From an uncultured Ferruginibacter sp. (GTDB lineage: Bacteria > Bacteroidota > Bacteroidia > Chitinophagales > Chitinophagaceae), in NCBI GenBank assembly GCA_964586215.1, contig CAZPHA010000002.1:5388-69387 (forward strand): a stretch of 64,000 bases of DNA, written 5' to 3'. A model generated the notes under the pieces. The model had not been told where the DNA came from. It was given only the letters and a program-made list of their open reading frames with translations, and did not search any database. Below, piece by piece: positions 50,833 through 51,012 of this stretch (within the stretch, counting starts at the first letter, position 1; every line of letters starts with the position of its first letter). Position numbers and translations under genes: made by a program.

Positions 50833-51012
50833 ATGAAAAAAGAAAAATCACTGGATCAAAAAAAAACATTAGTACTCAACAAAAGAACTATTGTAAAATT
50901 TGTGAATAAAGACTTAAATTATGTAAAAGGTGGTTATGATAATGGTGGTGGTGGCAATCAGTCGGACCCTAGAGTGTGTAATTCTCAGAATGACACCGTG
51001 GAAGCAAAGTAG
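50833..51012 (+). CDS. 59-aa Bacteroidota class I lanthipeptide-type precursor (not in ORF track)
   Basis: MKKEKSLDQKKTLVLNKRTIVKFVNKDLNYVKGG-YDNGGGGNQSDPRVCNSQNDTVEAK; LxLxKx5(L/F) leader motif and GG site. Confidence 0.75.
   Translation: MKKEKSLDQKKTLVLNKRTIVKFVNKDLNYVKGGYDNGGGGNQSDPRVCNSQNDTVEAK

What the first reader, a model, noticed from the sequence alone, without database searches (positions are those of the whole stretch)
50833..51012. Unannotated 59-aa lanthipeptide-type precursor with an atypical polar core
Seen: the ORF (just below the 60-aa cutoff) has the leader 'LVLNKRTIVKF...YVKGG', its own promoter and a downstream hairpin. Established: LxLxKx5L leaders mark Bacteroidota class I lanthipeptide precursors. 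The core YDNGGGGNQSDPRVCNSQNDTVEAK has only one Cys, two Ser and one Thr, a Gly4 linker and a net acidic charge. Inference: it looks more like a signalling peptide (ligand for the adjacent LytS kinase) with at most one ring than a polycyclic antibiotic.
Basis: partly seen in the sequence, partly recalled or inferred. Interest (0 to 1): 0.75.

Follow-up and report, generated by a model that had tools for sequence, protein, structure and literature searches.

The report
Single-cysteine peptide signal next to its sensor
The 59-codon gene is real and belongs to a conserved, undescribed Bacteroidota family of exported one-cysteine peptides that always sit in front of a protease, a membrane sensor kinase and a LytTR regulator, which points to a peptide quorum-sensing switch for bacteriocin genes rather than an antibiotic.

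Summary
The ORF at 50833-51012 (+) exists exactly as described. Its leader matches the Bacteroidota class I lanthipeptide leader model NF038153 over the model's full length but below cut-off (18.1 against 22 bits).

It is not an isolated oddity. Anchoring on the downstream S41 peptidase recovered the operon peptide-S41-His_kinase-LytTR regulator in Pedobacter, Chitinophagaceae, Taibaiella and Rhodocytophaga. Of 55 parsed homologues, 53 have exactly one Cys, with Ser/Thr 4-6 residues before it, an 8-14 residue polar tail and a net acidic core. Generic L1a precursors mostly carry 3-7 Cys.

Four observations link the peptide to the kinase and regulator:
- These loci usually also hold GG-leader bacteriocin-like peptides, a CPBP immunity-type protein and a C39-ABC exporter.
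- One conserved promoter element (GTCCT-N15-GGTGTA-N5-TTTG, 21-22 bp repeats) precedes both the peptide operon and the bacteriocin operon, in the window and in relatives.
- Peptide core divergence tracks the kinase sensor domain and S41, not the kinase catalytic domain.
- The cluster with a non-LytTR regulator lacks the element.

Best reading (about 0.5): an autoinducing pheromone. One lanthionine ring is possible but unproven. The window has no LanB, the local LanC lacks a zinc ligand, and most family loci lack LanBC. No expression data could be obtained.

The parts
49367..49401 (+). Copy 1 of the shared regulatory/promoter element (GTCTT-N15-GGTGTA-N5-TTTT), upstream of the two GG-leader bacteriocin-like genes
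   Evidence: It is one of only 3 strict-motif hits in the 3.07 Mb genome (0-1 in shuffles), with the same internal spacing as copy 2. Equivalent copies precede GG-peptide or divergent operons in L033, L082 and L131.
49609..49806 (+). GG-leader bacteriocin-like peptide 1 (65 aa)
   Evidence: It is 45% identical (E 3e-19) to a GG peptide in the equivalent Pedobacter locus L097. It has a weak lactococcin G-beta family hit.
49860..50039 (+). GG-leader bacteriocin-like peptide 2 (ORF listed from 49821; likely start MKTLELAKKG)
   Evidence: ORF list. It has a weak lactococcin G-alpha family hit. The start codon is inferred.
50212..50691 (+). CPBP/Rce1-like intramembrane protease (immunity-type protein)
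   Evidence: PF02517, E 1.2e-12. The same family is present in relatives' loci L030, L035, L097, L133.
50718..50728 (+). Distal direct repeat ATTTGATCCTT, 22 bp upstream of ATTTGTCCTTT (50740-50750) and 43-44 bp upstream of GTTTGGTGTAT
   Evidence: Read from the sequence and found by the direct-repeat scan. A similar 21-bp repeat occurs in L028.
50744..50778 (+). Copy 2 of the shared regulatory/promoter element (GTCCT-N15-GGTGTA-N5-TTTG), 55-89 nt upstream of the peptide ATG
   Evidence: A GGTGTA/GGTTAA box sits at a comparable distance before 16 of 17 peptide genes examined.
50833..50934 (+). Leader of the peptide (residues 1-34, ends in G33-G34)
   Evidence: NF038153 full-length match at 18.1 bits. 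The leader is 36% identical overall, and near-identical in LNKRTIxKF, to the LanA of the genome's complete class I cluster. G33 is invariant in alignment A3.
50935..51012 (+). Core YDNGGGGNQSDPRVCNSQNDTVEAK plus stop; Ser44 (50962-50964) and Cys49 (50977-50979) are the family-conserved pair
   Evidence: Cys is invariant in A3. 53 of 55 homologues have one Cys. Ser/Thr is at -5 in 49 of those 53 and at -4 in the rest. Ser44 is nearly invariant in A4.
51051..51078 (+). 12-bp stem-loop followed by a U-rich tract between the peptide gene and S41 (possible partial terminator)
   Evidence: z = -3.0. It is not conserved in relatives.
51112..52512 (+). Exported S41 peptidase (signal peptide, then Q-x-C-x-C)
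   Evidence: PF03572, E 1.5e-15. AF2 model pLDDT 85, with S41 fold matches to CPAF, CtpA and SaNSR. H86, S375 and E378 are invariant in 39 sequences. It follows the peptide in every family locus.
52499..53614 (+). Sensor histidine kinase: about 4 TM helices with short loops, a coiled coil, and His_kinase (LytS/YehU-type) with ATPase
   Evidence: PF06580, E 9.5e-25. Hydropathy. The sensor part is 28% and the kinase part 47% identical on average across loci. The ATG at 52499 is inferred; the ORF is listed from TTG 52427.
53631..54341 (+). Response regulator with LytTR DNA-binding domain
   Evidence: PF00072 and PF04397. Orthologues in L036, L090, L097 and L131-133 are also LytTR.
54451..55629 (+). 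LanC-like cyclase homologue with SHG in place of the CHG zinc-ligand motif
   Evidence: PF05147, E 4e-33. The alignment to 8BYK and to orthologues shows FSHG against FCHG. The sequence is identical in three independent assemblies. Orthologous loci L036 and L090 continue into LanB, whereas the window continues into kup.

Best explanation
The gene encodes the precursor of a small secreted signalling peptide (an autoinducer). It heads an operon of peptide, S41 peptidase, membrane sensor kinase and LytTR response regulator (plus LanC).

Proposed mechanism; every step is inferred, none is shown:
1. The 34-residue leader ending in Gly-Gly is removed during export by one of the genome's four C39-ABC exporters.
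2. The 25-residue acidic core may first be dehydrated at Ser44 and closed onto Cys49 into a single lanthionine ring. The only LanB in the genome lies in the paralogous cluster on another contig, and its precursor has a nearly identical LNKRTIxKF recognition stretch. Closure would be by a LanC or spontaneous.
3. The exported S41 peptidase acts on the peptide's C-terminal tail. It either trims it to the active form or destroys it to reset the signal. This is modelled on the S41 nisin-resistance protein, which threads nisin's tail until the last ring plugs the tunnel and cuts just behind the ring.
4. The peptide is sensed by the 4-TM kinase, which activates the LytTR regulator.
5. The regulator binds the 21-22-bp-spaced repeats of the element shared by the peptide operon and the neighbouring GG-leader bacteriocin/immunity operon. 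This switches on both, giving positive feedback plus bacteriocin production.

What is shown: the family exists, its sequence signature, the gene order, the shared cis-element and the co-variation.
For: 1. Real gene and family. 57 homologues were found with a profile. 53 of 55 parsed have exactly one Cys, Ser/Thr at -5 (49 of 53) or -4, a core of about 27 aa, mean charge -2.2 and an 8-14 aa tail. The window peptide fits every point.

2. Fixed gene order. A peptide sits directly upstream of S41, followed by His_kinase and the regulator, in 11 loci: L023, L027-L030, L033, L035, L036, L082, L090, L097. L025 has S41-HK-RR too, but its upstream ORF is not a clear family member. The order recurs in three further loci, L131-L133. 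In L024 the kinase and regulator are divergent.

3. Contrast with other L1a peptides. Those beside LanB/LanC have 3-6 Cys. Of 136 further library hits, only 16 have one Cys and 104 have three or more.

4. Locus type. GG bacteriocin-like peptides, CPBP and PCAT/HlyD lie next to the module in the window and in L097, L033, L082, L131-L133. Window peptide 1 is 45% identical to the Pedobacter one.

5. Shared cis-element. It lies upstream of both operons in the window. It gives 3 strict hits genome-wide, 2 of them here, against 0-1 in shuffles. The same dual arrangement occurs in L033, L082 and L131. The repeats are 21-22 bp apart. The element is absent from the C7 cluster, whose regulator is GerE-type rather than LytTR.

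6. Co-variation across 13 loci by partial Mantel test:
- core vs kinase sensor domain given the regulator: r = 0.44, p = 0.001
- core vs S41: r = 0.55, p < 0.0002
- core vs kinase catalytic part: r = 0.12

7. S41 looks active. H86, S375 and E378 are invariant. It has the S41 fold, with SaNSR among the matches. The NSR mechanism and its operon with a two-component system are described in PMC4698656.

8. Exporters in trans. Four full-length C39-ABC genes are in the genome.
Against: - No transcription, translation or mass-spectrometry data exist.
- The kinase is LytS/YehU-type (PF06580), not the AgrC/ComD-type known to sense peptides. Such kinases are very common in Bacteroidota and could sense envelope stress instead.
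- The co-variation test uses 13 loci, approximate domain borders and some loci with two kinases. Fast-evolving parts can correlate for reasons of rate alone.
- The cis-element could be an unusual promoter rather than a regulator binding site. No binding is shown.
- The lanthionine step is weak. The leader is below the model cut-off, there is no LanB in the window and the local LanC lacks a zinc ligand. Most family loci lack LanBC, and two genomes have no LanC.
- The peptide is absent from 23 of 24 genomes of the same genus. The locus is much more AT-rich than the genome, 24-29% against 36% GC, so it may be a recent and possibly decaying acquisition.
Confidence: 0.5

Rival explanations
1. The peptide is mainly an antimicrobial one-ring lanthipeptide (or one component of a multi-peptide bacteriocin). 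S41 would be an NSR-like self-immunity protease. The kinase and regulator would sense the antibiotic or the damage it causes, as in nisin/NsrRK-type systems. Any signalling would be secondary.
For: - The L1a-type leader and GG site match lanthipeptide precursors.
- LanC is adjacent, and LanC-LanB follow directly in the orthologous loci L036 and L090.
- The S41 fold includes SaNSR among its matches. NSR is encoded with a two-component system (PMC4698656).
- The paralogous C7 cluster holds four S41 genes beside a 3-Cys LanA.
Against: - The core is short, Gly/Asn/Asp-rich, acidic (mean -2.2 in the family) and without hydrophobic or amphipathic character, unlike membrane- or lipid II-targeting peptides.
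- The loci already carry separate hydrophobic GG-leader bacteriocin candidates with a CPBP immunity-type gene.
- Most family loci have no LanBC.
- The shared promoter element and the co-variation with the sensor domain fit a ligand better.
Confidence: 0.15
2. The peptide is an unmodified or differently modified GG-leader peptide that is not a lanthipeptide. Its conserved Cys and C-terminal tail would serve S41-dependent chemistry or recognition. Examples are tail removal with thiolactone closure as in agr AIPs, a disulfide-linked dimer, or simple proteolytic activation. The L1a-like leader would be only an export signal.
For: - Family loci in Pedobacter have PCAT and S41 but no LanB or LanC within 7-8 kb.
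- 2 of 12 genomes have no LanC.
- The window LanC lacks a zinc ligand.
- S41 is the one enzyme that is always present, and it co-varies most strongly with the core.
- A Thr lies 3-6 residues after the Cys in most members, followed by a tail.
Against: - The conserved Ser 5 residues before the Cys is what a Dha-to-Cys lanthionine needs.
- All 12 genomes tested have at least one LanB-domain protein.
- In Taibaiella the only LanB-LanC pair sits in the same operon, and only single-Cys precursors were found there.
- No S41 enzyme is known to make thiolactones (own knowledge).
Confidence: 0.2
3. The window locus is a decaying remnant of a class I lanthipeptide cluster. LanB was lost, LanC was inactivated by the Cys-to-Ser change, and the peptide no longer has a function in this organism.
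For: - Orthologous loci run peptide-S41-HK-RR-LanC-LanB, whereas the window ends at LanC and kup follows after 165 bp.
- The SHG substitution is real in three assemblies.
- The locus is absent from most of the genus.
- Base composition is mosaic.
Against: - All genes of the locus are intact ORFs.
- The peptide keeps every family-conserved feature.
- Both promoter elements are intact.
- The many Pedobacter loci work without local LanBC, so losing LanB need not disable the module.
- A LanB and an intact LanC exist in trans.
Confidence: 0.1
4. The ORF is a chance open frame and is not translated.
For: It is short and AT-rich, has no Pfam hit, and a single-sequence search found only itself.
Against: 57 homologues of 54-94 aa share start, leader, GG, Ser-x4-Cys and position in front of S41 across several families of Bacteroidota.
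Confidence: 0.02

Closest known systems
Bacteroidota class I lanthipeptide precursors with the LxLxKx5L / Gly-Gly leader (NCBIfam NF038153 'lant_leader_L1a'; pinensin-type family; Walker et al. 2020, PMC7268733)
   Same: The leader architecture and GG end match. The LNKRTIxKF stretch is near-identical to the LanA of the genome's own complete LanB/LanC/LanT cluster. A LanC is next door.
   Different: - The score is below the family cut-off.
- It has one Cys, where most family members have 3-7.
- The core is polar and acidic.
- There is no LanB in the locus, and the LanC lacks a zinc ligand.
- It is always followed by S41-kinase-regulator rather than by modification enzymes.
Three-component peptide-pheromone regulation of class II bacteriocins in Firmicutes (PlnA/PlnBCD, BlpC/BlpHR, ComC/ComDE); own knowledge
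   Same: - A GG-leader peptide is encoded in one operon with a polytopic kinase and a LytTR regulator.
- Neighbouring operons carry two-peptide-like GG bacteriocins, a CPBP/Abi immunity-type protein and, in relatives, a C39-ABC exporter with an HlyD/LcnD-like partner.
- Imperfect direct repeats about 21 bp apart are shared by the regulated operons.
   Different: - The phylum differs (Gram-negative Bacteroidota).
- The kinase is of the LytS/YehU His_kinase type, not HPK10.
- An S41 peptidase is an obligatory extra gene.
- The peptide has a conserved Ser-x4-Cys and a lanthipeptide-type leader.
- No inducing activity is shown.
Nisin/subtilin autoinduction (NisA-NisK-NisR); own knowledge
   Same: A class I lanthipeptide precursor is genetically linked to a two-component system that would activate its own promoter.
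   Different: Nisin is a five-ring cationic antibiotic, NisR is OmpR-type, and no S41 is involved in its maturation. Here the core is acidic with at most one ring, and the regulator is LytTR.
Nisin resistance protein NSR with NsrRK (Khosa et al. 2016, PMC4698656)
   Same: - An S41 peptidase is encoded with a two-component system.
- It has a Ser/His catalytic pair. Here H86 and S375 are invariant.
- The NSR substrate logic, a lanthionine ring followed by a C-terminal tail that is cut behind the ring, matches the shape of these cores.
- SaNSR (4y68) is among the fold matches.
   Different: - It is not the closest fold match. CPAF and CtpA rank higher.
- No sequence-level hit to NSR was found in the PDB search.
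- The protein is about 150 residues longer, with an extra beta-rich domain.
- Here the protease is encoded beside its presumed substrate in the producer.
agr system (AgrD/AgrB/AgrC/AgrA); own knowledge
   Same: Both have a four-gene logic of precursor peptide, processing protease, polytopic kinase and LytTR regulator. Both have a single conserved Cys followed by a removable C-terminal tail.
   Different: AgrB is a membrane cysteine protease, AgrD has an amphipathic N-terminal leader rather than a GG leader, and the AIP ring is a thiolactone. No homology between the components was detected, apart from the LytTR domain.

Membership tests
Class I lanthipeptide precursor, Bacteroidota L1a type (NF038153) | Leader matches the family model at or above the curated cut-off (22 bits) | tested here: not met
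   18.1 bits, E 0.0022, full model length 1-32; 17.4 bits in the genome scan.
Class I lanthipeptide precursor, Bacteroidota L1a type (NF038153) | LxLxKx5L motif and Gly-Gly end of the leader | tested here: met
   The leader reads L13-V-L15-N-K17-RTIVK-F23, with F in place of the last L, and G33-G34. The motif definition is in PMC7268733.
Class I lanthipeptide precursor, Bacteroidota L1a type (NF038153) | Core holds Ser/Thr and Cys able to form at least one (methyl)lanthionine | tested here: met
   Ser44 and Cys49. The Ser-x4-Cys spacing is conserved across the family. This shows capacity only, not formation.
Class I lanthipeptide precursor, Bacteroidota L1a type (NF038153) | LanB dehydratase and functional LanC cyclase encoded with the precursor | tested here: not met
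   There is no LanB in the window. The single LanB of the genome is on contig C7. The local LanC has SHG instead of the CHG zinc-ligand motif. An intact LanC and a LanB exist in trans.
Class I lanthipeptide precursor, Bacteroidota L1a type (NF038153) | Dehydration and thioether ring in the mature product | not testable with these tools
   This needs mass spectrometry or heterologous co-expression.
GG-leader peptide pheromone of a three-component (peptide/HK/LytTR-RR) bacteriocin regulon | Double-glycine leader and a C39-ABC exporter | tested here: met
   GG at residues 33-34. There are four full-length C39-ABC genes in the genome, none in the window. An exporter lies inside the equivalent loci of relatives.
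GG-leader peptide pheromone of a three-component (peptide/HK/LytTR-RR) bacteriocin regulon | Peptide gene co-operonic with a membrane histidine kinase and a LytTR response regulator | tested here: met
   The order is 50833-51012, (S41), 52499-53614, 53631-54341, all on the + strand. The order is conserved in more than 15 loci. Co-transcription itself was not tested.
GG-leader peptide pheromone of a three-component (peptide/HK/LytTR-RR) bacteriocin regulon | Kinase of the peptide-sensing HPK10 (AgrC/ComD/PlnB) type | tested here: not met
   The kinase carries PF06580 His_kinase (LytS/YehU type) with about 4 TM helices.
GG-leader peptide pheromone of a three-component (peptide/HK/LytTR-RR) bacteriocin regulon | Conserved direct repeats shared by the promoters of the pheromone operon and the bacteriocin operons | tested here: met
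   Composite element at 49367-49401 and 50744-50778, with repeats 21-22 bp apart. The same holds in L033, L082 and L131. Binding by the regulator was not tested.
GG-leader peptide pheromone of a three-component (peptide/HK/LytTR-RR) bacteriocin regulon | Mature peptide induces its own and the bacteriocin operons | not testable with these tools
   This needs reporter or transcript assays.
S41 lantibiotic-degrading protease of the NSR type (for the partner gene 51112-52512) | S41 fold with a Ser/His catalytic pair | tested here: met
   PF03572. AF2 model pLDDT 85, with Foldseek hits to S41 enzymes including 4y68. H86 and S375 are invariant in 39 sequences.
S41 lantibiotic-degrading protease of the NSR type (for the partner gene 51112-52512) | Cleaves a lanthipeptide behind its last ring | not testable with these tools
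   Only indirect support exists: co-variation of S41 with the peptide core, partial r 0.55.

The most novel reading that the evidence does not exclude
The module (single-Cys GG-leader peptide, S41 C-terminal protease, 4-TM LytS-type kinase, LytTR regulator) is a dedicated peptide quorum-sensing cassette of Bacteroidota. It would be a Gram-negative counterpart of agr/Com/Pln. An S41 protease would mature a one-ring (lanthionine, or possibly thiolactone) pheromone, and pherotype-like diversification of the core would be matched by the sensor domain. It would control bacteriocin and lanthipeptide production across Sphingobacteriales, Chitinophagales and Cytophagales.
Probability: 0.35. Interest if true: 0.85.

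Novelty: new variant of a known kind. Interest (0 to 1): 0.66.

Why it matters
Peptide-pheromone quorum sensing with LytTR regulators is regarded as a Gram-positive trait (own knowledge). I found no paper in the held library describing such a system, or this gene module, in Bacteroidota.

If the reading is right, three things follow:
- It gives a defined and easily testable signal/receptor pair in cultivable soil Pedobacter strains.
- It offers a handle for switching on silent bacteriocin and lanthipeptide clusters in a phylum known to be rich in uncharacterised class I lanthipeptide clusters (PMC7268733).
- It assigns a new role to S41 proteases as partners of ribosomal peptides.

It also warns genome miners that L1a-type leaders do not always mark polycyclic antibiotics.

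Tried and rejected
- Single-sequence homology search found only the peptide itself. Profile and synteny-anchored searches were needed.
- Same-genus search: 23 of 24 other genomes lack it. The one genome with hits (G016) has related peptides with 0 or 2 Cys beside a transposase-like ORF or a broken S41. These were not informative for function.
- The sigma-70 promoter scan gave no enrichment.
- I considered reading the conserved TGGTGTA-N5-TTTGG box as a sigma-54 promoter. I rejected it because the GG-to-G spacing is two bases too long and the -12 GC is missing (sequence; consensus from own knowledge). A fit to the Bacteroidota -33/-7 consensus is also imperfect, so the exact promoter is left open.
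- The hairpin after the gene is strong in the window but absent in relatives, so it is not a family feature.
- A third strict-motif hit (contig C55) and a looser hit on C68, about 770 bp upstream of dnaB, showed no link to peptide genes and are treated as chance.
- The PDB sequence search with S41 did not find NSR. Only the fold search did, and not as the top hit. So 'NSR-like' is an analogy, not membership.
- Pfam gave nothing for the peptide. PF28317, recorded for some homologues, is not in the local Pfam copy.
- Caetano et al. 2020 on Pedobacter lanthipeptides is not held.
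Full report
**Observation.** The ORF at 50833-51012 (+) is present as described. It is 59 aa long. The leader ends in Gly33-Gly34. The 25-aa core, YDNGGGGNQSDPRVCNSQNDTVEAK, has one Cys, two Ser, one Thr and net charge -2. The leader aligns to the whole NCBIfam model NF038153 (class I lanthipeptide leader L1a), but at 18.1 bits against a cut-off of 22. The LxLxKx5L/Gly-Gly leader of Bacteroidota class I precursors is documented by Walker et al. 2020 (PMC7268733); here the last L is F. The hairpin at 51051-51078 is a perfect 12-bp stem (z = -3.0). 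It is specific to this genome, because five relatives have nothing similar. A sigma-70 scan gives no more promoter-like sites than chance.

**Locus.** All genes lie on the + strand, after ftsQAZ and a divergent META-domain gene:
- two GG-leader bacteriocin-like peptides (49609-50039)
- a CPBP/Rce1-like membrane protease (50212-50691)
- the peptide
- an exported S41 peptidase (51112-52512)
- a kinase with about four TM helices and a PF06580 His_kinase domain (52499-53614)
- a LytTR response regulator (53631-54341)
- a LanC-like protein (54451-55629), then kup

The segment 50-53 kb has 24-29% GC, against 36% for the genome and 41% for LanC.

**Same genome.** The assembly (3.08 Mb) has a single LanB, two LanC genes and four full-length C39-ABC exporters. 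The LanB lies in a complete class I cluster on contig C7, ordered HlyD, LanT, LanC, a 74-aa LanA with three Cys, S41, His_kinase, a GerE-type regulator, three more S41 genes, then LanB. The window module is a diverged paralogue of it. Identities are 36% for the peptide, with LNKRTI(V/A)KF shared, about 28% for S41, 37% for the kinase, 54% for the receiver domain and 26% for LanC.

**The family.** A single-sequence search found only the peptide itself, and 23 of 24 other genomes of the genus lack it. Anchoring on an alignment of the five S41 paralogues returned 80 Bacteroidota loci. In twelve of them S41 is followed directly by His_kinase and a response regulator. These are eight Pedobacter, Chitinophaga silvisoli, a Chitinophagaceae MAG, a Bacteroidota MAG and Taibaiella. 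One more, Rhodocytophaga, has the pair divergent.

Directly upstream of S41 in these loci sit peptides of 57-66 aa with an L1a-like or FxFK(R/K)-type leader ending in GG (LNG in the two L036 peptides). Chitinophaga silvisoli (L025) is the exception: its upstream ORF is not a clear family member.

A profile of 16 such peptides found 57 proteins, mostly annotated 'hypothetical' and once 'class I lanthipeptide'. Their shared signature:
- 53 of 55 that could be parsed have exactly one Cys.
- Ser/Thr stands five residues before the Cys in 49 of those 53, and four before it in the rest.
- The core averages 27 aa with mean charge -2.2.
- 8-14 polar residues follow the Cys.

Met1, the first Gly of GG and the Cys are the only invariant columns in A3. 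Ser44 is nearly invariant in A4. The window peptide fits all of this.

An exhaustive HMM search of 1.84 billion representatives gave 457 hits. Beyond the closest fifteen or so, these are ordinary L1a precursors. Only 16 of 136 have one Cys and 104 have three or more. Within the genomes carrying the module, L1a peptides beside LanB/LanC have 3-6 Cys, whereas those in front of S41 have one. Three further loci, fetched from homologues found in metagenomes, repeat the order peptide-S41-kinase(s)-LytTR regulator.

**Locus type.** In Pedobacter sp. KACC 23697 (L097) the module is divergent from an operon with two GG-leader peptides, a small membrane protein, a CPBP protein, an HlyD-like protein and a C39-ABC exporter. 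One of those peptides is 45% identical to window peptide 1. L033, L082 and L131-L133 show similar neighbours (small peptide genes, CPBP and/or a C39-ABC exporter). The window therefore carries the same kind of locus, minus the exporter.

**Cis-element.** Upstream regions of 16 of 17 peptide genes share a GGTGTA (once GGTTAA) box 59-80 nt before the ATG. In most it is preceded at 15 nt by (T/C)GTCCT and followed after 5 nt by TTTG(G). In the window the units ATTTGATCCTT, ATTTGTCCTTT and GTTTGGTGTAT start 22 and 21 bp apart. L028 has GTCCTGAcA/GTCCTGAAA 21 bp apart.

The strict composite pattern occurs three times in the whole genome, against 0-1 in ten shuffles. Two of the three are in this locus with identical internal spacing. 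One lies before the peptide (50744-50778) and one before the bacteriocin-like genes (49367-49401). In L033, L082 and L131 a second copy likewise points into the divergent operon, which encodes GG-peptide/CPBP/exporter genes in L033 and L082. The C7 cluster, whose regulator has a GerE rather than a LytTR domain, has no copy. Direct repeats about two helical turns apart are the known binding format of LytTR regulators (own knowledge). Binding here is inferred.

**Co-variation.** Across 13 loci, pairwise identity of the peptide core was compared with other parts of the module by partial Mantel tests with 5000 permutations, controlling for the regulator.

| Core compared with | Partial r | p |
|---|---|---|
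| Kinase membrane (sensor) domain | 0.44 | 0.001 |
| S41 | 0.55 | <0.0002 |
| Kinase catalytic part | 0.12 | not tested |

The sensor domain is also the more divergent half of the kinase, at 28% against 47% mean identity. This suggests that the core contacts both the sensor and S41. The sample is small, however, and rate effects could contribute.

**S41.** The AlphaFold model (39-sequence alignment, pLDDT 85) matches S41 enzymes. CPAF ranks best, followed by D1/CtpA-type C-terminal processing proteases, Bacteroides S41 structures and the nisin resistance protein SaNSR (4y68, E 1.4e-10). His86, Ser375 (in SGSASE) and Glu378 are invariant. This parallels the His98/Ser236 dyad in NSR's TASSAEM motif (PMC4698656). 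NSR threads nisin's C-terminal tail through a tunnel until the last lanthionine ring plugs it, and cuts just behind the ring. It is also encoded with a two-component system. A core built as a short ring followed by an 8-14 residue tail is what such an enzyme would handle. This is analogy only.

**Lanthipeptide or not.**
- In favour: the leader type, the conserved Ser-x4-Cys and the adjacent LanC. The orthologous Chitinophagaceae and Taibaiella loci continue RR-LanC-LanB. In Taibaiella the only LanB/LanC pair sits with single-Cys precursors, the only kind found there. The window leader is also close to that of the C7 LanA, so the C7 LanB could act in trans.
- Against: the score is below cut-off and there is no LanB in the window. 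The local LanC reads FSHG where 8BYK, C7, L036 and L090 read (F/L)CHG. That Cys is a zinc ligand of NisC-type cyclases (own knowledge). The substitution is identical in three independent assemblies. The Pedobacter-type loci have no LanB or LanC within 7-8 kb, and two of twelve genomes have no LanC at all, although all have LanB-domain proteins.

I put a single lanthionine at roughly even odds.

**Verdict.** The most likely function is an exported autoinducer. It would be sensed by the co-encoded kinase and act through the LytTR regulator on its own operon and the bacteriocin operon, with S41 processing or clearing it.

Rivals:
- an antimicrobial peptide with NSR-like immunity
- a non-lanthipeptide whose Cys serves other S41-linked chemistry
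- a decaying cluster remnant

The closest known systems are the Pln/Blp/Com three-component circuits and nisin autoinduction. The Bacteroidota setting, the LytS-type kinase, the obligatory S41 and the one-Cys lanthipeptide-like precursor make it a new variant. No paper in the held library describes it.

Noticed in passing
window 54451-55629 (codon at 55381-55383): The LanC-like protein has Ser in place of the Cys of the CHG zinc-ligand motif (THFSHGTSG). Orthologues in L036 and L090 and the paralogue on contig C7 keep CHG. The change is identical in three independent metagenome assemblies.
   Followed up: yes
G000 contig C7:58000-77900 (L007): A complete class I lanthipeptide cluster with a 3-Cys LanA and four paralogous S41 peptidase genes between LanA and LanB. 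It also has a His_kinase paired with a GerE-type (not LytTR) regulator.
   Followed up: partly
window 51112-51200 and S41 genes of L023-L092: Most of the 39 S41 homologues aligned have a signal peptide followed by Q-x-C-x-C (for example AQNCNC). The Gln fits the Bacteroidota habit of N-terminal pyroglutamate after signal cleavage. The role of the CxC pair is unknown.
   Followed up: no
window 49609-50691: A pair of GG-leader peptides plus a CPBP protein looks like a two-peptide bacteriocin with immunity. Peptide 1 has a clear homologue (45% identity) in the equivalent Pedobacter locus.
   Followed up: partly
L090:14970-15182: In Taibaiella a further GG-leader peptide with a different, class II-like leader and again a single Cys (…TATICTSRTD…) lies just after LanB.
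   Followed up: no
L036:6649-10240: The Chitinophagaceae MAG has a duplicated peptide-S41 unit with a fragmented third S41 and a partial duplicate of the endonuclease III gene. This indicates a recent tandem duplication. Both peptides there have three Cys, and their leaders end in LNG rather than GG.
   Followed up: no
L009, L019, L021 (genome G016, same genus): Related leader-bearing peptides have Gly-rich cores with no Cys (GGGDKGGGGNVSAGGVGFPF) or two Cys. One lies next to transposase-like ORFs and one in front of a fragmented S41 gene.
   Followed up: no
window 49500-53500: The bacteriocin/peptide/S41/kinase segment has 24-30% GC against 36% for the genome. LanC and kup have about 40%. The locus looks mosaic or acquired.
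   Followed up: partly
L023, L033, L035, L082, L133: Several Pedobacter-type modules carry two tandem His_kinase genes, and up to four S41 genes, before the single LytTR regulator.
   Followed up: no
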